A stretch of DNA of 64,000 bases from a virus. Of this stretch, positions 39,087 to 44,738 are shown one piece after another (position 1 is the first letter of the stretch; each line of letters begins with the position of its first letter). The notes beneath the pieces are model-generated. The model was not told the DNA's origin, ran no database searches, and worked only from the letters and a program-made list of their open reading frames with translations. The translations under genes and the position numbers were made by a program. Location: IMG/VR virus record IMGVR_UViG_3300022602_000058, positions 26,085 to 90,084 of that record; one strand, given 5' to 3'.

Positions 39087-39752
39087 TTAATTAATTTCAG
39101 CCACATGATGATCAAATGTCACTTGATCATACAGCCTGAATTTTGCTCTTAGCTCAGCAAAGGAAATAGGTTTAGAACATATTTCAACACCAACATCCAT
39201 TGTCTTTGCCTTATAGAGAAGCTTTCCGAGCTCAGACTTATATAGATTACCATGAGAATGACTATGAAGCTGCCAAGCTCCTTTATGCTGACCGTTCCAG
39301 GTAGCCTGTGCATAATGACACATGACAATAGCCTGTCCATTCACTACAACCTCGAGATAGTTTGGAACAAAGTGAATTAGCTTCTCATGGCCATTAACAT
39401 TGAGAACATTCTCATGTAATGAATCTAGGATCTGTTTGTACCCTGCCTGATGGTTACCAGGGAGAATATAGAGCTCTTTAAAGTTAAGTCTGTTAAAAAG
39501 CTTTAACAACCTCTCATCAGCTTTGTATCCAAAGATAGTATCACCTAAAAGGAAGCCAATAGTGTTCTTATTAGCTTTTGAGTTCCAGTTTTTAATTAGA
39601 CCCTCATCATGCTCCTCAGAACTGTTATACCCTCTGGTCTTCCAGATAGGAACATCCCATTTTGGATCATGACCATAGTGCATGCAGCCCCAGAACAGAA
39701 CATTATGATCTGTTGAGCTAACCTTTACAGGTTTATAAAATACATCCTTCAT
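39087..39752 (-). CDS. Calcineurin-like metallophosphoesterase
   Basis: GCMHYGH, LLGD, PGNH, MCHY, HSHSH, DVGVE; start taken at MKDVFY after TTGAAG-N17-TACTAT. Confidence 0.85.
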   Translation of the reverse strand: MKDVFYKPVKVSSTDHNVLFWGCMHYGHDPKWDVPIWKTRGYNSSEEHDEGLIKNWNSKANKNTIGFLLGDTIFGYKADERLLKLFNRLNFKELYILPGNHQAGYKQILDSLHENVLNVNGHEKLIHFVPNYLEVVVNGQAIVMCHYAQATWNGQHKGAWQLHSHSHGNLYKSELGKLLYKAKTMDVGVEICSKPISFAELRAKFRLYDQVTFDHHVAEIN

Positions 39753-39790
39753 ACCAATAATAGTATATCCAACCCTAGGACACTTCAAGT

Positions 39791-40060
39791 TTATTCTTCT
39801 TCTATCTTATATCTATTTGTATTTTCAAATCTATTTGCTACAAATACTTCAAAAGCTTCTAGAATATCCTCTTCAAATTGAACTTGGTCCTGTTCATCAA
39901 CCATATCAACAACACAATCTAAGATTGCTGTCATAAAGCCAGCTATCTGAGTACTTCTCAAGCTATCATCATAATCTAGAGTCTTTATTGCAGGGTTACC
40001 TTTATACATCCCTACAACGAAAACAGGGACAAAGTCTTCATCGTTTGCTTTATTGCTCAT
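39791..40060 (-). CDS. Acidic hypothetical protein
   Basis: 89 aa ORF. Confidence 0.65.
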   Translation of the reverse strand: MSNKANDEDFVPVFVVGMYKGNPAIKTLDYDDSLRSTQIAGFMTAILDCVVDMVDEQDQVQFEEDILEAFEVFVANRFENTNRYKIEEE

Positions 40061-40181
40061 CGTACCCCTTCCATATTACATCAAATAACCAATAAGGCAA
40101 ATAAGCATAACTAAGAATATAGAATCTTTTTCTCCAAGACATTCCTTCAGTAATATACAGAAATCTTTTAAGGAATTTCAT
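40050..40181 (-). CDS. Small hypothetical protein, 43 aa (not in the ORF track)
   Basis: Manual translation MKFLKRFLYITEGMSWRKRFYILSYAYLPYWLFDVIWKGYDEQ; overlaps both neighbours and fills the gap. Confidence 0.5.
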   Translation of the reverse strand: MKFLKRFLYITEGMSWRKRFYILSYAYLPYWLFDVIWKGYDEQ

Positions 40182-40527
40182 TACCTAAAAGCTTTTTGCA
40201 CAAATTATTACAAGAGATCCTATACTCACACTCCATAGGATCTCTTGCCTCAATGGCATTGAAATACTGCTCATCATTCTCAATAAACTCTTCTTTTAAC
40301 TGCTTTTTAAAATCAGGGTTGAGCTTAGCACTAATCAACTCAAGAATAGGTTTAACATCTAGATCTGATAAATGTAAAGTAATTTCAGAGTTATCATATT
40401 CTGAACCATAATTAAACTCAAGCTTTAGAGTTACAGGAGGATGATAGAGATCACCAAAAGGTTCCCCGGTAAAGTCAGAAAAGTAAGTTACTTCTTCGTG
40501 TTGTTTTGGAACTAATATTTTTTTCAT
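40168..40527 (-). CDS. Hypothetical protein
   Basis: 119 aa ORF, ATGA-coupled to the upstream gene. Confidence 0.65.
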   Translation of the reverse strand: MKKILVPKQHEEVTYFSDFTGEPFGDLYHPPVTLKLEFNYGSEYDNSEITLHLSDLDVKPILELISAKLNPDFKKQLKEEFIENDEQYFNAIEARDPMECEYRISCNNLCKKLLGNEIP

Positions 40528-41408
40528 GATTTGTTTAAAGAGTTGTAGATGTCATCATAAGCTCCAAGAGAAGCATACTGTTTCTTTTTTAATGCTTTCT
40601 GCTCCTCTTGGAACTTTCTTTCTGATTCTTGATAAAAGTTCTCTACTCCTGTATTGATGATATTATAGGTACCATCTTCTAGGATTTCAAGAACTTGTTG
40701 AAGACCACAATCAATATCAATACAAAGTCCCTTATTTCGAGTCTCCTCTATATCAATACCATGACGCATGGGTGTATGGCCATAGACCTGCTTAATACCT
40801 GATTGATCATTCCAGTATGAACCTGTATAGGGTTCTTGAAAATGATCTCGCCAAACCGCACCACCGACCCGATGAATGCCCCCCCTACACTTTCCAGCTC
40901 CAGCTAGTTCTTTACTAAAGATTCTCGCATCAAAATCCTGTTGTATCTTCTTGAGCTTAATATTAATTATCTCATTATCCATACCATAAGGCGGGCTTGA
41001 GAACCAAAACGGATGAAAGCCAGCGTGTGAAAACCAAAAACCATTTTCATAATGAGCAAATTTGAGCTTATCCCAGTCTTCATTAGTCATGATTCTGTTA
41101 ATAGCGTCATCCTTCTGCGGGGTATAACCTATGCATTTATAAATTTGATCGCCGATATTAGAGCCAGGACGAATATTTTTATAGTGATAGCTCAAATCAT
41201 GATTACCAATAAGAGCGACGTGATTAGCTTTGTTTATAAATCCTTTAAGCCATTTAGCCGTTTGATCAGCATTAATAGCAGAATCACCAAAGTCATCGAA
41301 GAAATCCCCGACTGCAACAATAGTGTGCGTATCAGTGTACATTTCAACAATATGCTGTGCCTCGACGATATGGTTATGAATATCACCCACGCATAGTAAT
41401 TTAGCCAT
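40524..41408 (-). CDS. Calcineurin-like metallophosphoesterase
   Basis: GDIHN, GDFFD, GNHD, SHAG, YGHT. Confidence 0.9.
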   Translation of the reverse strand: MAKLLCVGDIHNHIVEAQHIVEMYTDTHTIVAVGDFFDDFGDSAINADQTAKWLKGFINKANHVALIGNHDLSYHYKNIRPGSNIGDQIYKCIGYTPQKDDAINRIMTNEDWDKLKFAHYENGFWFSHAGFHPFWFSSPPYGMDNEIINIKLKKIQQDFDARIFSKELAGAGKCRGGIHRVGGAVWRDHFQEPYTGSYWNDQSGIKQVYGHTPMRHGIDIEETRNKGLCIDIDCGLQQVLEILEDGTYNIINTGVENFYQESERKFQEEQKALKKKQYASLGAYDDIYNSLNKS

Positions 41409-41442
41409 GTATAAAGTATAGATACTTTAGGCGGAAAGGCAA

Positions 41443-41524
41443 TAAAAAACTCTCGAGACGATATTGATGTGTCATGACCAATATTAGTACAAACGACTAT
41501 AGTCGCAAAGTTCGTCTCGAGAGC
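41443..41524 (-). ncRNA. Predicted structured small RNA divergent from, and partly antisense to, the LAGLIDADG nuclease mRNA 5' end
   Basis: 12-bp perfect inverted repeat 41450-41461/41512-41523; inner hairpin CGAC-TATA-GTCG 41494-41505; T-tract on the minus strand; TAAGTA 5 nt before the predicted +1; 41470-41490 matches 41536-41556 at 19/21. Confidence 0.6.
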
Positions 41525-41537
41525 ATAAATACTTATG
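41524..41537. promoter_or_regulatory. Bidirectional late-promoter quasi-palindrome CATAAATACTTATG
   Basis: Exact reverse complement of 38377-38390; TAAATA on +, TAAGTA on -. Confidence 0.6.
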
Positions 41538-41539
41538 TC

Positions 41540-42397
41540 ATGACAAATATTATTACTACACGAGAACTCTCTTTCAATAAAAAGAATAAATTAACATCTG
41601 AACAAAAGCTGCAGATATGTAGGCGGTACATAGAGGGGGAAAGCTGTGAAAGTTTATCACGTACATTTAATGTATGGTGCGGTACGGTGGTTCGCCTACT
41701 AAAACGTAATAACATTCAAAGACGGGATCATAGAACATCATGTTCAAGATACAAATTTAATCATAGATTTTTTACAAATATTGATACAGAGGCTAAAGCA
41801 TATTTTATTGGATTTGTATTAGCTGACGGTTGTGTGCGCCGCGATTGCCTAACAATCCAATTACATCAACAAGACACGCATATTCTTGAATATTTTATTA
41901 GCTGTATAGAAGGTGACTGTAAACTCTACTCTAGTAAACAAAGAAACGGGGACGTACACCCTGTATTAAAGCTGTCTTCTCTACAAATGATTACCGATCT
42001 AAAGCAGCACGGTATAATAGAAAACAAAACATACAATTTAACAACATTACCCGCAATACCTGAACATTTAGAAAGACATTTCTGGAGAGGGGTTATGGAT
42101 GGTGATGGGTGCGTGTACTTATCTAAAGATAAAAAACAATTTCAAGCGTTTATATGTAATTATCTGAAGCACCCTATCGATGCATTTGAATCTTTTTTAC
42201 TTAGGAATAATATCGAAACACGAGGTATAATAAAATACCCTGGTGTTTATAACTTAACACTATGTAACAAATATGCTCTTAAATTTCTTAAGTTAATTTA
42301 TACAGATTCTGATCCCGAACTCTGCTTAAAGAGAAAATATGAAAAGTATTTAAAATATACAGACTCAGGATATGTCAATGAAGAAAGTAGAGAATAG
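41540..42397 (+). CDS. LAGLIDADG homing endonuclease with N-terminal HTH
   Basis: KAYFIGFVLADGCV and RHFWRGVMDGDGCV; likely start is ATG 41540 (the ORF-track start 41474 lies in the upstream duplicated segment). Confidence 0.88.
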   Translation: MTNIITTRELSFNKKNKLTSEQKLQICRRYIEGESCESLSRTFNVWCGTVVRLLKRNNIQRRDHRTSCSRYKFNHRFFTNIDTEAKAYFIGFVLADGCVRRDCLTIQLHQQDTHILEYFISCIEGDCKLYSSKQRNGDVHPVLKLSSLQMITDLKQHGIIENKTYNLTTLPAIPEHLERHFWRGVMDGDGCVYLSKDKKQFQAFICNYLKHPIDAFESFLLRNNIETRGIIKYPGVYNLTLCNKYALKFLKLIYTDSDPELCLKRKYEKYLKYTDSGYVNEESRE

Positions 42398-42479
42398 CCT
42401 TAATAAGACTCCACCACATTAAACAACCAAGAATCATTGCTCCTAGCCAAGTAGCTAAGGGTATAAAATCTCTATCCAT
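42375..42479 (-). CDS. Small membrane protein, 34 aa (not in the ORF track)
   Basis: Manual translation MDRDFIPLATWLGAMILGCLMWWSLIKAILYFLH; TTGCAT-N17-TAGCAT upstream. Confidence 0.45.
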   Translation of the reverse strand: MDRDFIPLATWLGAMILGCLMWWSLIKAILYFLH

Positions 42480-42522
42480 CAGTTAATGCTATATACTATT
42501 ATTGGTATATGCAAGCAATATT

Positions 42523-42861
42523 TTAATTATATTGTATTAGATATCCTTTATCAGATAACTTTGAATACCCTGCTACGTTATAGAGTATTATGTCTATGTT
42601 ACCGTATGCACTAATATTTGGTAAATTTACAGTAAATAGATTATCATTTGTATAATAAAAGCTGCTTAATGGTAAGCCATAACCTGTAAAAGCGGGGAAT
42701 AGAGCTGATACTTTATGATTGTTTGTAAAATTATTTACTGTACTTAAACTCGGAAATGTAACATTACCAGAACTAAGGAATACCTGCTGAATATGTTCAA
42801 ACATCCTACCTTGAAATAGAATGGATGCCGTTTGTGGATATGTAACGGTAATATAGTTCAC
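42523..42861 (-). CDS. Hypothetical virion-associated protein (possible Ig-like fold)
   Basis: Beta-rich 112 aa ORF; TAAATA 6 nt upstream. Confidence 0.55.
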   Translation of the reverse strand: MNYITVTYPQTASILFQGRMFEHIQQVFLSSGNVTFPSLSTVNNFTNNHKVSALFPAFTGYGLPLSSFYYTNDNLFTVNLPNISAYGNIDIILYNVAGYSKLSDKGYLIQYN

Positions 42862-42878
42862 TAACTATATTTAATAAA

Positions 42879-44738
42879 TTACTTTTTAAGAGATTGAACT
42901 TCTGCTTTAAGTTCTTTAATAGCCTGAAGAAGAAGTGGTATTATCTTATCGTAATTAACTGCTTTATACCCATCATTGCGTGTAACAACTGCTTCAGGTA
43001 AAACTTGTTCAATTTCCTGTGCTATAACACCAACATCATGACCGGTATGAACAGTTTGAAGTTCAGTATTCCAATCATATTCAACACCGTTTATACTTTC
43101 AATCTTATCTAATGCCGATGTAATTGGTTGTATATTATTCTTTAATTGTCTGTCAGAAGAAGCAAAAGCAATAATATCACCATCAGCACTAATTGTACTA
43201 GTAGCATGAATTGTACCAGTTACGTCAAGTGTTGTAGCTGGAGTTACTGTGTTAATACCAACACAGTGAGTATTATTATTATCAACAAACATTGTAGTAA
43301 CAGTATTTGAATTATCTTGAAAATACGTACCGCCTGTTGCCGGTCGAAGAGCAAGATTAGTACTATCACCGTAAATGTAACCCGTACCACCGAGGTAGAT
43401 ATTATTACTATCAACCTTTAAATTACCATTAACTTCTAATTTCTGGGATGGTGATGATGTACCAATACCAACATTTCCACCGTTAATAGCTGTAGTTATA
43501 TTACCAGATTGATCGATCTTTAAGCGGTTAGTACCAGAACCAAGTACGTTAGTCCAAATATTGAACGTATTATCCGTCTCTTTTGTAATTGTAAACCCTT
43601 GTCCATTGACATTGTTACCTAATTGTAATGCAGCGTAATTTAACGCATTAATCTGTAGGTTACCTACTGGTGATGATGTACCGATACCAACACTACCACC
43701 GAATATCGTAGTACCTGAAGCACTAATTGTACCGAGTACTGATAATTGTACGTTAGGATTTGTTGGGGGTATTACACCAATACCTACACTACCGTAGTTA
43801 TCTACGTAGAAAGATTGAGGTATTGTGCGATTTGTATCTTGTATAACTAGAGAGGGACCTGAGCCTACTTGTTTTATTGAAACGGCCGGTAGAGCATTAT
43901 TAGTTGGTATAAATGTAACCGTTGACTGACCATCGCCAACATTTGTTAGTGTACCGCCTGATAGGTATAAAAATCTATTCGAGATATAAGCGTTAGTACC
44001 TGCGCGAGAATTATAAATTGATTGATCAACATATAATTTGTTTGTTAGATCACTATTATTAACAGGCAACGTACTTACACTAACACTTGTCGTACTACTT
44101 AGTGTACCGAAAACCGTTGCTACCCCGCTCAACGGTACATAGTTATTACCTACATAGTTTCTTGTATATGTTTCTGCTGTTCGGACACCAGAAAGTAATG
44201 CATTAAGATTAACAATATCTATTAAATTAACTGGGTCACTAAGGATAGTACCGCTATTAACACTTATTGAGCTGACATTAAGTGTGTATGAGGTAATATT
44301 ATTTTTAATATTAAGTGAGGAGGTAGTAGGATCTGTACCAGTATCTAAAGTAAGATAAAGAGGATTAAAAATTAATTGACCTGTTGTATAATCAAAAGGA
44401 GAGCCATAAACAGGATGTATATTAGTCCATCCATTAATCTTACTAAAGGAATATAGCTTATTATCAGCGTTACCGTTAGCATCAAAATTTTGAAACGCAA
44501 GATCACCGTTATACGCTAAAGATGAATACTGATCTCTATTATTAACAACACCAAAATTAGTATTACCTACGAGTATACCGCCTTGGGTAACACCGTCACC
44601 TATAAAAAGACGCTTTGTATCAACAGTGTAGCCAAGTTCGCCAGAATAAAAAGTAATATTCTGTCTATCTAAATCAGTACCACGCCTGATAATAATCTTA
44701 ACTACTGTATCTGATGTAACATTAATAGTGTTGGCCAT
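42879..44738 (-). CDS. Tail fibre with Mtd-N-like N-terminus and C-terminal peptidase S74 intramolecular chaperone
   Basis: IIIRRGT..GELGYTVDTKRLFIGDG; G(N/S)VGIGT repeats; SSDRQLKNNI..GVIAQEIEQVLPEAV..VNYDKIIPLLLQAIKEL. Confidence 0.9.
   Translation of the reverse strand: MANTINVTSDTVVKIIIRRGTDLDRQNITFYSGELGYTVDTKRLFIGDGVTQGGILVGNTNFGVVNNRDQYSSLAYNGDLAFQNFDANGNADNKLYSFSKINGWTNIHPVYGSPFDYTTGQLIFNPLYLTLDTGTDPTTSSLNIKNNITSYTLNVSSISVNSGTILSDPVNLIDIVNLNALLSGVRTAETYTRNYVGNNYVPLSGVATVFGTLSSTTSVSVSTLPVNNSDLTNKLYVDQSIYNSRAGTNAYISNRFLYLSGGTLTNVGDGQSTVTFIPTNNALPAVSIKQVGSGPSLVIQDTNRTIPQSFYVDNYGSVGIGVIPPTNPNVQLSVLGTISASGTTIFGGSVGIGTSSPVGNLQINALNYAALQLGNNVNGQGFTITKETDNTFNIWTNVLGSGTNRLKIDQSGNITTAINGGNVGIGTSSPSQKLEVNGNLKVDSNNIYLGGTGYIYGDSTNLALRPATGGTYFQDNSNTVTTMFVDNNNTHCVGINTVTPATTLDVTGTIHATSTISADGDIIAFASSDRQLKNNIQPITSALDKIESINGVEYDWNTELQTVHTGHDVGVIAQEIEQVLPEAVVTRNDGYKAVNYDKIIPLLLQAIKELKAEVQSLKK

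What the first reader, a model, noticed from the sequence alone, without database searches (positions are those of the whole stretch)
41443..41556. LAGLIDADG-associated predicted sRNA (locus 2) with an imperfect self-match
The predicted minus-strand RNA from 41524 is GCUCUCGAGACGA-ACUUUGCGACUAUAGUCGUUU-GUACUAAUAUUGGUCAUGAC-ACAUCAAUA-UCGUCUCGAGAG-UUUUUU. The 20-nt loop segment is complementary to GUCAUGACAAAUAUUAUUAC (predicted +1 at 41537, AUG at 41540) with two true mismatches. These may tune repression, or the best target may be elsewhere (a paralog or a competing phage's allele). The copy is 66 nt upstream and in frame, so gene callers extend the ORF to 41474 and hide the element.
Basis: partly seen in the sequence, partly recalled or inferred. 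Interest (0 to 1): 0.8.

Follow-up and report, generated by a model that had tools for sequence, protein, structure and literature searches.

The report
Antisense RNA lock on phage nucleases
Beside a selfish DNA-cutting-enzyme gene of an uncultured T4-like phage lies a small hairpin RNA gene whose loop mirrors the first letters of the enzyme's message; at least 13 such genes share this portable design, which most likely keeps the enzyme scarce.

Summary
A perfect 12-bp inverted repeat (41450-41461/41512-41523) follows an A6 run, which is a U6 tail on the minus strand. Its loop holds a 21-nt near-copy (2 mismatches) of the start of the LAGLIDADG gene, 66 nt downstream.

It is one of 13 distinct instances of the same module: two in this window, nine in other viral contigs and two in metagenome contigs. 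The module sits in front of LAGLIDADG, GIY-YIG and HNH/EndoVII-like nuclease genes.

- Stems covary. Non-Watson-Crick positions are G.U on the minus strand in 9 of 10 cases and A.C on the plus strand.
- Every loop copies its own gene's first 8-14 nt. Identity starts exactly at the predicted transcription start.
- A 14-bp quasi-palindrome supplies two back-to-back late-promoter boxes. The same box lies 5 nt before leaderless late genes.
- The 22-codon extension from 41474 is missing in 15 of 17 homologs. The start is 41540.

Best reading: a divergent antisense sRNA of about 81 nt blocks the near-leaderless nuclease mRNA. No RNA data exist.

I found no paper describing this. Unchecked notes of this scan describe similar modules on other phage DNA.

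The parts
41444..41524 (-). Predicted sRNA of locus 2, about 81 nt: 5' G at 41524, 12-13-bp closing stem, structured interior, U6 tail
   Evidence: Fold z = -4.38. CM R1 scores 39.3 bits, E = 3.4e-7, on the minus strand. Start and end are predicted, not mapped.
41444..41449 (-). U6 run (A6 on plus) directly after the stem: terminator-like tail
   Evidence: At least 5 consecutive U in 11 of 13 family members (my reading of the output).
41450..41461 (.). Stem arm (3' arm of the minus-strand RNA)
   Evidence: I1. Covariation across 13 loci.
41512..41523 (.). Stem arm (5' arm of the minus-strand RNA)
   Evidence: I1..
41470..41490 (-). Antisense segment: the complement of this stretch pairs with the nuclease mRNA 5' end. 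The anti-start CAU sits in an 8-nt apical loop.
   Evidence: P(unpaired) at least 0.93 for CAU. Duplex -20.6 kcal/mol starting at mRNA nt 1.
41493..41506 (-). Small inner hairpin (4 G-C/A-U pairs plus a closing G.U on the minus strand, which is A.C on the plus strand)
   Evidence: fold. Sequence.
41524..41537 (.). 14-bp quasi-palindrome with two overlapping late-promoter-like boxes: TAAATA at 41526-41531 on plus (nuclease mRNA, +1 about 41537) and TAAGTA at 41535-41530 on minus (sRNA, +1 about 41524)
   Evidence: Only 2 copies in the 90-kb contig. TAAATA lies 5-7 nt before 23 long-ORF starts. The motif is kept in all 13 loci.
41536..41556 (+). Target: predicted 5' end of the nuclease mRNA, including the AUG at 41540
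41540..42397 (+). LAGLIDADG homing endonuclease gene (285 aa) with an N-terminal helix-turn-helix. This is the true ORF; the 41474 start is an artefact.
   Evidence: Pfam LAGLIDADG_3, 33.8 bits (cut-off 22.5). phrog_4645 E = 1.1e-46. N-termini.
41415..41442 (-). Sigma-70-like promoter (TTGCCT-16-TATACT) just after the U run, in front of the minus-strand metallophosphoesterase gene 40524-41408
   Evidence: 9 of 12 matches; consensus scan only. A similar element stands at locus 1.
38295..38377 (-). Sister sRNA (locus 1): same architecture, different stem and loop
   Evidence: CM R1 scores 52.6 bits.
38321..38338 (-). Locus 1 antisense segment (copy of the HNH-like gene's first 18 nt, 1 mismatch)
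38377..38390 (.). Locus 1 quasi-palindrome, the exact reverse complement of the locus 2 motif
38390..39085 (+). HNH/EndoVII-like nuclease gene (231 aa, GTG start at the predicted +1)
   Evidence: phrog_28061. That family co-occurs with phrog_1035 'endonuclease VII' and Pfam HNH in L008 and L162.

Best explanation
The feature is a small RNA gene that belongs to a portable 5' cassette of free-standing homing endonuclease genes in T4-like phages.

A 14-bp quasi-palindrome carries two overlapping, back-to-back late-promoter boxes. One box fires rightwards. It gives a nuclease mRNA with a 0-4-nt leader; here +1 is about 41537 and the AUG is at 41540. The other box fires leftwards. It gives an RNA of about 81 nt (41524 to about 41444) that is essentially one long hairpin closed by a 12-13-bp stem and ended by a U run.

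Inside the hairpin, usually in a 5-9-nt apical loop, lies the exact complement of the first 8-14 nt of the neighbouring nuclease mRNA, start codon included. The sRNA pairs in trans with the extreme 5' end of that mRNA. This hides the 5'-terminal start codon from ribosomes, and the duplex may be cut by a double-strand RNase. The selfish nuclease is therefore made only in small amounts.

Shown by computation: the structure, its strand, the promoter-like boxes, the loop/target matching and the correct start codon. Inferred: that the RNA is transcribed, that it terminates at the U run, and that pairing represses rather than activates.
For: 1. The family is real.
- 13 distinct instances have the same order of parts: A run, CTC-stem, loop copy, stem-GAG, quasi-palindrome, gene start.
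- Among sites carrying the 17-nt motif, 9 of 76 viral, 4 of 116 metagenome and 0 of 121 bacterial/archaeal sites have a stem of at least 9 bp.
- All 13 sites with a stem also have the loop copy, which was not used for selection.

2. Stem covariation.
- 6 of 10 pairs changed on both sides. The covariation score is 0.695 against 0.234 in shuffles (0 of 500 reach it) and at most 0.094 when partners are slid.

3. Strand.
- The 10 non-Watson-Crick stem positions are G.U in 9 and a mismatch in 1 on the minus strand. On the plus strand the numbers are reversed.
- Within stem positions 1-11 all 5 are G.U on the minus strand.
- The minus-strand fold is the more stable in 12 of 13.
- The U run exists only on the minus strand.

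4. Loop matches its own target.
- The longest target prefix found in the own loop averages 11.5 nt, against 4.1 nt for non-cognate pairs. Shuffled loops reach the observed value 0 of 1000 times in 11 loci, 1 and 2 of 1000 in two.
- Cognate duplexes average -21.9 kcal/mol against -9.7. The cognate sRNA ranks first for 11 of 13 mRNAs and second for 2. Every duplex starts at mRNA nt 1.

5. Sharp boundary.
- Copy identity is 13 of 13 from -1 to +6, 0 of 13 at -2, and about 0.3 further upstream and beyond +14. So what is copied is the transcript's 5' end, not the promoter.

6. Promoter.
- TAAATA lies exactly 5 nt before 14 long-ORF starts, and 5-7 nt before 23, out of 112 occurrences. Scrambled controls show no such peak.
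- The same 5-nt spacing puts the sRNA start on the G at the base of the stem.
- A CM hit found without the motif (G002, 32.9 bits) has a stand-alone TATAAATA 6 nt before the stem-base G.

7. Presentation.
- The anti-start codon lies wholly in an apical hairpin loop in 8 of 13 MFE folds, and with 2 of its 3 nt in 4 more.

8. The upstream copy is not a coding start.
- It reads into the gene in only 2 of 13 loci.
- The invariant Tyr is at residue 17-32 in 14 of 17 homologs, 30 for the 41540 start and 52 for the 41474 start.
Against: - There is no expression evidence of any kind for this or any family member.
- The instances were picked by motif plus stem, so '100% paired' is partly by selection. 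Several loci are close relatives (L009/L012, L171/L172, L114/L143) and are not independent.
- The promoter assignment rests on a motif/spacing statistic and on recalled knowledge of T4 late promoters. At locus 2 the sRNA-side box is the variant TAAGTA, which precedes only 4 long-ORF starts among 53 occurrences.
- The 46-76-nt hairpin is long for an intrinsic terminator.
- 8-14 nt of perfect pairing is short. For OrzO/zorO, 12 nt of continuous pairing did not suffice (PMC3919570, passages read).
- A syntenic relative (L003) keeps the nuclease at the same site without the module, so the module is dispensable.
- The direction of the effect (repression) is inferred only.
Confidence: 0.6

Rival explanations
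1. The minus-strand RNA exists, but pairing does something other than repress its own nuclease. It might protect or stabilise the mRNA 5' end, time expression, or act on the allele of a co-infecting phage.
For: - Locus 2 has two true mismatches.
- L172's loop fits L171's target better than its own: 17 nt against 8.
- The locus 2 sRNA pairs almost as well with the L162 mRNA (-21.8 kcal/mol) as that mRNA's own sRNA does (-22.1).
- An antisense RNA that protects mRNA from RNase E during phage infection is in print (PMC3113571; title and abstract seen in the listing only).
Against: - The pairing always covers the start codon and nt 1 of the mRNA. That blocks initiation on a leaderless message.
- No second match exists in the 90-kb contig.
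- The only IMG/VR match is in an unrelated GC-rich contig; one to a few such hits are expected by chance by my own rough estimate.
- Cognate pairs are best in 11 of 13.
Confidence: 0.15
2. The hairpin plus U run is only a transcription terminator or insulator of the cassette, of the PeSL kind (stem-loop plus early promoter). It stops minus-strand transcripts that run antisense through the inverted nuclease gene before the next gene's own promoter. The loop copy would be a by-product of duplication or gene conversion.
For: - In 8 of 13 loci the nuclease gene is inverted among minus-strand genes.
- At both window loci a sigma-70-like promoter follows the U run.
- Composite terminator/promoter cassettes that shuffle genes are known in T4-like phages (PMC4122927, abstract read).
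Against: - It does not explain why every loop carries its own gene's first 8-14 nt with a boundary exactly at the predicted +1.
- It does not explain why the anti-start codon is displayed in an apical loop.
- In 5 of 13 loci the upstream genes are co-directional, so there is no antisense read-through problem of that kind.
- It does not explain the conserved second promoter box facing the hairpin.
Confidence: 0.1
3. The element acts on the plus strand or as DNA. It could be a cis leader or uORF that controls translation of read-through transcripts, as in the T-even RBS-sequestering hairpins. Or the 12-21-bp direct repeats could drive deletion of the promoter segment.
For: - The plus strand also folds well (z = -3.48).
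- At locus 1 the upstream copy opens a 19-codon ORF that ends in the palindrome.
- A late promoter nested beside a hairpin is the known T-even design (PMC2988022, passages read).
Against: - The two copies are direct repeats, so nothing on the plus strand can pair with the start region, which lies outside the hairpin.
- Stems carry A.C mismatches on the plus strand in 9 of 10 non-Watson-Crick positions.
- The upstream ORFs have no conserved frame or length: 3-28 codons in 11 loci, and 5 of 13 in frame.
- In 8 of 13 loci no plus-strand gene lies upstream to supply read-through.
Confidence: 0.07
4. Translation really starts at 41474, and the hairpin region simply encodes a 22-residue N-terminal extension.
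For: - The frame is open from 41474.
- Two database homologs (95% and 86% identical) are recorded with the extension.
Against: - 15 of 17 homologs lack it. The invariant Tyr is at residue 17-32 in 14 of them, against 52 with the extension.
- In-frame read-through occurs in only 2 of 13 family loci.
- No late-promoter box stands 5-7 nt before 41474, whereas one stands 5 nt before 41537.
- The syntenic L003 gene starts 5 nt after its own box with a short N-terminus.
Confidence: 0.03

Closest known systems
Divergently encoded type I antitoxin sRNAs: OrzO/zorO, IstR-1/tisB, OhsC/shoB (PMC3919570, passages read)
   Same: The sRNA gene lies next to, and is transcribed divergently from, a potentially harmful gene. 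A short stretch of complementarity (18-21 nt there, 8-21 nt here) to the 5' part of the mRNA arises from a local inverted copy. Paralogous pairs are kept apart by a few nucleotides; here the two window pairs are orthogonal, -22.7 and -20.6 kcal/mol cognate against -10.2 and -11.3 crossed.
   Different: The targets there are small hydrophobic peptides with long structured 5' UTRs in bacterial chromosomes. Here the targets are 200-360-aa homing endonucleases in lytic phages with near-leaderless mRNAs. Pairing is at the very 5' end and start codon. The two promoters overlap in one palindrome. Toxicity and addiction are untested.
RalR/RalA of the rac prophage (PMC4041452, abstract read)
   Same: A DNA endonuclease is held in check by a small trans-acting RNA with 16 nt of complementarity to its mRNA, in a phage-derived context.
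   Different: RalA needs Hfq, and RalR is a non-specific DNase of a cryptic prophage. No shared sequence, palindromic promoter or hairpin design; no homology was tested or claimed.
RBS-sequestering hairpins with a nested late promoter before T-even homing endonucleases: I-TevI, I-TevII, I-TevIII, segB, mobE (PMC2988022, passages read)
   Same: Same biological problem and same phage group: a late promoter placed at a hairpin just upstream of a homing endonuclease gene, limiting its translation.
   Different: Those hairpins act in cis on the same strand and contain the ribosome-binding site. Here the start region lies outside the hairpin, the folded strand is the opposite one, and the mRNA has no Shine-Dalgarno leader.
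CfrI antisense RNA of cyanophage S-PM2 (PMC2984593, passage read; PMC12197685, passage read)
   Same: A small RNA of a T4-like phage associated with a homing endonuclease gene.
   Different: CfrI is a cis-antisense RNA of about 225 nt overlapping the endonuclease gene and psbA. The RNA here does not overlap its target gene and pairs through a duplicated segment.
PeSL promoter/terminator cassettes of T4-like phages (PMC4122927, abstract read)
   Same: A small composite stem-loop plus promoter element sits at the borders of variable genes and is shared between unrelated genes.
   Different: As described in that abstract, PeSLs pair a terminator with an early promoter and serve recombination. No antisense loop or late bidirectional promoter is described there. 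I did not read the main text.

Membership tests
Type I toxin-antitoxin locus with divergent sRNA antitoxin | sRNA gene adjacent and divergent to the protein gene, with a short region of complementarity to its mRNA | tested here: met
   Divergent arrangement and 8-14-nt perfect (up to 21-nt imperfect) complementarity in 13 of 13 loci.
Type I toxin-antitoxin locus with divergent sRNA antitoxin | Toxin is a small (usually under 60 aa) hydrophobic peptide | tested here: not met
   The targets are 156-364-aa nuclease-type proteins. RalR is a known nuclease exception.
Type I toxin-antitoxin locus with divergent sRNA antitoxin | Protein is toxic when over-expressed and the sRNA rescues | not testable with these tools
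   Needs expression experiments.
T-even cis RBS-sequestering hairpin with nested late promoter | The hairpin on the mRNA strand contains the ribosome-binding site or start codon | tested here: not met
   The start codon at 41540 lies 17 nt outside the hairpin. The copies are direct repeats. 9 of 10 non-Watson-Crick stem positions are A.C on the mRNA strand.
T-even cis RBS-sequestering hairpin with nested late promoter | Late promoter placed so that late transcripts escape the hairpin | tested here: met
   A TAAATA box lies directly after the hairpin, 5 nt before the predicted +1. The promoter is predicted only.
PeSL (promoter-early stem-loop) | Stem-loop terminator immediately followed by an early sigma-70-type promoter | tested here: inconclusive
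   TTGCCT-16-TATACT follows the U run (9 of 12 matches, and the scan found no more promoter-like sites than shuffles). A similar element stands at locus 1. Not examined in the other 11 loci.
Any Rfam family (including int-alpA RF02996, named in earlier notes of this scan) | Match to the covariance model | tested here: not met
   No match at E <= 1 in window 37500-43000, both strands.
Cis-antisense RNA (CfrI type) | Transcribed from the strand opposite to, and overlapping, its target gene | tested here: not met
   The predicted RNA (41524-41444) ends before, and does not overlap, the target (41537 onward).
LAGLIDADG homing endonuclease (the target gene) | Pfam LAGLIDADG domain above the curated cut-off | tested here: met
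   PF14528, 33.8 bits against cut-off 22.5. Motif columns D118/G119 and D209-G212 are invariant in 18 sequences.
Intrinsic (Rho-independent) terminator | G+C-rich stem directly followed by a U run on the transcribed strand | tested here: met
   12-bp stem plus U6 on the minus strand. Termination itself is untested.

The most novel reading that the evidence does not exclude
T4-like phages carry a portable, 'programmable' RNA lock. It is a cassette of about 100 bp made of one palindromic bidirectional late promoter and a hairpin sRNA. The sRNA's apical loop is rewritten to match the first dozen nucleotides of whichever homing endonuclease mRNA it is fused to. LAGLIDADG, GIY-YIG and HNH genes all use it. 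Each pair is orthogonal to the others in the same genome. It works by pairing with the extreme 5' end of leaderless mRNAs, a mode of sRNA control for which I found no description in my searches.
Probability: 0.45. Interest if true: 0.8.

Novelty: new variant of a known kind. Interest (0 to 1): 0.72.

Why it matters
Homing endonucleases are selfish nucleases that a phage must keep at a low dose. The known controls in T-even phages are cis hairpins and autorepression.

A trans-acting sRNA built into the mobile cassette itself would be a third solution. The cassette is shared by three unrelated nuclease families and re-matched to each gene. It would resemble a type I antitoxin and would travel with the selfish gene.

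It would also give a natural set of orthogonal sRNA/5'-end pairs acting on leaderless mRNAs. That makes two questions directly testable: how leaderless messages are regulated, and how little pairing suffices.

Practically, it shows that gene callers mis-start such genes (41474 instead of 41540) and thereby hide the RNA gene.

Tried and rejected
Searches that found nothing useful
- Megablast of 40400-42600 against cultured phages: no match.
- blastn of the module (41436-41600) against cultured phages: only 7 short chance pieces, E >= 0.5. No cultured phage with the module was found.
- tblastn of the nuclease against cultured phages: distant homologs only (at most 35% identity), aligned from query residue 12-35 onward.
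- RNA runs: no RNA holder was listed.
- Rfam: no family in 37500-43000 at E <= 1.
- A target elsewhere: none in the own contig. There is one IMG/VR match (L342), at the start of a gene in an unrelated GC-rich contig with a Shine-Dalgarno site. About one to a few such hits are expected by chance by my own rough estimate. Rejected.

False or weak candidates
Only L008 and L114 had the architecture.
- L007, L010 and L011 and L287 and L292 carry the motif but no A run or loop copy. Dropped as chance.
- Weak CM hits in the own genome (21.8 bits and below), in G001-G005 and in G007 (19.2 bits) were not counted as members. The own-genome 21.8-bit hit was looked at and lies inside the metallophosphoesterase gene.
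- G002:216422-216495 (32.9 bits) has the hairpin, a promoter box and a loop copy. Its 'target' opens only a 5-codon ORF. It is used as support for the promoter only and is not counted among the 13.

Other limits
- The MAFFT alignment A3 is unreliable in the interior, so only the outer stem was modelled.
- The cis pairing of 41467-41478 with 41537-41548 (I2) comes from a locus-specific 8-nt palindrome. It has no counterpart in other loci and was rejected as a general mechanism.
- Literature: 8 answered searches. None listed a paper describing a divergent sRNA matched to a homing endonuclease 5' end. Supplements were not consulted.
Full report
WHAT IS THERE

The window is bases 26085-90084 of a 90,084-bp IMG/VR viral contig that CheckV rates 41% complete. 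It is a distant T4-like myovirus: it has a gp18-type tail sheath, a gp25 baseplate protein and dUTPase.

At the reported place the plus strand reads, in order:
- A6 (41444-41449).
- A 12-nt arm (41450-41461).
- A 50-nt interior.
- The complementary arm (41512-41523).
- A 14-bp quasi-palindrome (41524-41537).
- The ATG at 41540 of a LAGLIDADG endonuclease gene.

The interior holds a 21-nt near-copy (41470-41490, 2 mismatches) of 41536-41556, exactly 66 nt upstream. The 20-mer occurs nowhere else in the window or contig. The minus-strand 91-mer folds far better than shuffles (z = -4.38).

IT IS A FAMILY

A second locus in the window (38295-38406), before an unrelated HNH/EndoVII-like gene, has the same parts in the same order but a different stem and a different loop copy. 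The two proteins share only 9 of 16 residues at the N-terminus.

Scanning public collections for the palindrome with its GAG flank gave these results:
- Viral contigs: 78 loci, 9 with the hairpin.

Together with the window that makes 13 distinct instances.

In a control set of 121 motif sites from bacterial and archaeal genomes, none has the stem. All 13 sites that have the stem also have a loop copy of their own gene start, a feature I did not use for selection.

The downstream genes are:
- LAGLIDADG (locus 2).
- GIY-YIG plus NUMOD1 (L157, L171, L172).
- HNH/EndoVII-like (L008, L162, L114, L143; locus 1 and L225 through phrog_28061).
- Three without a clear family (L009, L012, L260).

WHICH STRAND

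The outer stem covaries. Six of 10 pairs changed on both sides. The covariation score is 0.695 against 0.234 in shuffles and at most 0.094 for slid partners. The caveat is that stems were a selection criterion.

The strand-diagnostic evidence is independent of that. Of the 10 non-Watson-Crick positions in the stems, 9 are G.U and 1 is a mismatch when read on the strand opposite to the nuclease gene; on the gene's strand, 9 are A.C and 1 is G.U. The five that lie in stem positions 1-11 are all G.U on the opposite strand, at different positions in different loci. The opposite-strand fold is the more stable in 12 of 13. Only that strand has a U run after the stem: at least 5 U in 11 of 13 by my reading. 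The folded molecule is therefore a minus-strand RNA.

WHERE IT STARTS

In this contig TAAATA lies exactly 5 nt before 14 starts of long ORFs, and 5-7 nt before 23, out of 112 occurrences on both strands. Composition-matched controls have no such peak. These genes have no Shine-Dalgarno sequence.

By my recollection the T4 late promoter consensus spans -13 to -6. If so, +1 falls on or just before the start codon, which means leaderless late mRNAs.

The quasi-palindrome contains two such boxes back to back, overlapping by 2 bp:
- At locus 2, TAAATA (41526-41531) points at the nuclease gene, giving +1 at about 41537.
- At locus 2, the variant TAAGTA (41535-41530) points at the hairpin, giving +1 at about 41524, the G at the base of the stem.

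At locus 1 the motif is the exact reverse complement, so the strong box faces the hairpin.

A covariance model of the outer stem found one further hairpin in a complete 217-kb phage genome that lacks the palindrome. That hairpin has a stand-alone TATAAATA 6 nt before the stem-base G, and a loop copy of a start 5 nt after another ATAAATA about 70 nt away. Its target ORF is only 5 codons, so I count it as support for the promoter only.

WHAT THE LOOP MATCHES

- Each loop contains the first 8-14 nt of its own gene's predicted transcript without a mismatch. The mean is 11.5 nt, against 4.1 nt for non-cognate pairs. Shuffled loops reach the observed value in 0 of 1000 trials for 11 loci, and in 1 and 2 of 1000 for two.
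- Copy identity is 13 of 13 from position -1 to +6, falls to 0 of 13 at -2, and decays to background after about +13. The copied unit is the 5' end of the mRNA, not the promoter.
- Predicted duplexes average -21.9 kcal/mol for cognate pairs and -9.7 for non-cognate pairs. The cognate sRNA is the best partner for 11 of 13 mRNAs and second best for 2. Every duplex begins at mRNA nt 1.
- The complement of the start codon lies wholly in an apical loop of 5-9 nt in 8 of 13 minimum-energy folds, and with two of its three bases in 4 more. At locus 2 it sits in an 8-nt loop with P(unpaired) of at least 0.93.
- Locus 2's two mismatches leave 9 + 7 + 3 paired bases and -20.6 kcal/mol. That is ordinary for the family, so the 'imperfect self-match' needs no special explanation.
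- The two window pairs do not cross-pair: -10.2 and -11.3 kcal/mol.

THE START CODON

- The upstream copy reads into the nuclease gene in only 2 of 13 loci. In the other 11 it opens ORFs of 3-28 codons, and it is in frame in 5 of 13 overall.
- Among 17 homologs of the LAGLIDADG protein, only the two closest (95% and 86% identical) carry the 22 residues. The invariant Tyr is at residue 17-32 in 14 of them, 75 in one with an unrelated longer head, 30 for the 41540 start and 52 for the 41474 start.
- A related phage (L003) has a 45%-identical nuclease at the same site, next to a 71%-identical metallophosphoesterase. It has no hairpin, and its ATG lies 5 nt after its own ATAAATA.

The gene starts at 41540.

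MECHANISM AND RIVALS

Best reading (0.6): a divergent, late-promoter-driven hairpin sRNA of about 81 nt pairs through its loop with the 5' end and start codon of the near-leaderless nuclease mRNA and represses it.

Rivals:
- The RNA exists but has another effect or another target (0.15).
- It is only a terminator or insulator of the PeSL kind (0.1). This fails to explain the loop matching, and the 5 of 13 loci whose upstream genes are co-directional.
- It has a plus-strand or DNA-level role (0.07). The direct orientation of the copies and the A.C mismatches contradict this.
- It is a real N-terminal extension (0.03).

No RNA evidence could be obtained.

COMPARISON WITH WHAT IS KNOWN

The design works most like the divergently encoded type I antitoxin sRNAs (OrzO, IstR-1, OhsC; PMC3919570) and like RalA/RalR, an sRNA restraining a DNase (PMC4041452). 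It is not a member of those families: the targets are large nucleases and no homology is claimed.

It solves the same problem as the cis hairpins with nested late promoters of the T-even endonucleases (PMC2988022), but on the other strand and in trans. It differs from the cis-antisense CfrI of S-PM2 (PMC2984593). No Rfam family matches.

Eight literature searches listed no description of such a cassette.

Earlier unchecked notes of this scan describe the same two loci (e1-6120823, -824, -826). They also describe similar 'divergent hairpin antisense to the nuclease 5' end' modules in other T4-like phage contigs (e1-5989627, e1-5726749, e1-6112199). The design therefore recurs on other DNA. I did not test those loci.

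VERDICT

This is a real, conserved RNA element, most likely a trans-acting antisense lock carried by homing endonuclease cassettes. It is a new variant of a known kind of regulator and is computationally well supported. Its expression and its effect are unproven.

Noticed in passing
whole contig; e.g. window 1897, 7549, 18894(-), 50083(-), 53028(-), 56491(-): Late and structural genes have TAAATA exactly 5 nt (14 cases) or 6-7 nt (9 cases) before the start codon and no Shine-Dalgarno sequence. This implies leaderless late mRNAs in this T4-like phage.
   Followed up: partly
L329 (G002:C1:216340-216500), near the end of a complete 217-kb phage genome: A family-like hairpin with its own TATAAATA box. 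Its loop copies a start 5 nt after another ATAAATA about 70 nt away, but that start opens only a 5-codon ORF followed by non-coding, more G+C-rich sequence. A tRNA gene lies about 750 nt away. It may be a decayed cassette or a lock on a non-coding RNA.
   Followed up: partly
L003:883-1755 with neighbour L003:1-843: A related phage has a 45%-identical LAGLIDADG gene at the same site beside a 71%-identical metallophosphoesterase gene, but without the hairpin module. The module is therefore an optional add-on.
   Followed up: yes
window 38390-38440 and 41540-41590: The HNH-like and LAGLIDADG proteins are unrelated except for their first roughly 17 residues (9 of 16 identical). The shared cassette seems to include the first codons, and different nuclease bodies are joined behind it.
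   Followed up: partly
position -2 of the loop copy in all 13 loci (window 41469 and 38320): The base before the copied segment is never the A found at the target (0 of 13 identical). So the loop copy never recreates the ATG that the palindrome contains. This is unexplained.
   Followed up: no
window 41415-41442 (-) and 38262-38293 (-): Just after the U run, both loci have a similar sigma-70-like element (TTGnnT, 15-16 nt, TATACT) in front of the next minus-strand gene. The cassette may bring a replacement promoter for its neighbour.
   Followed up: no
window 40561-40622 (+): A weak covariance-model hit (21.8 bits, E = 0.006): an 8-bp hairpin inside the metallophosphoesterase gene on the opposite strand. 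It has no promoter box or loop copy and is probably chance.
   Followed up: partly
L162 versus window 41444-41524: The locus 2 sRNA is predicted to pair with the mRNA of an EndoVII-like nuclease in another contig (L162) almost as well as that gene's own sRNA does (-21.8 against -22.1 kcal/mol). The same 5' 'address' is used by different nuclease families.
   Followed up: no
L342:3018-3037: A perfect 20-nt match to the loop copy at the start of a gene in an unrelated G+C-rich phage contig that has a Shine-Dalgarno site. I judged it a chance match.
   Followed up: yes
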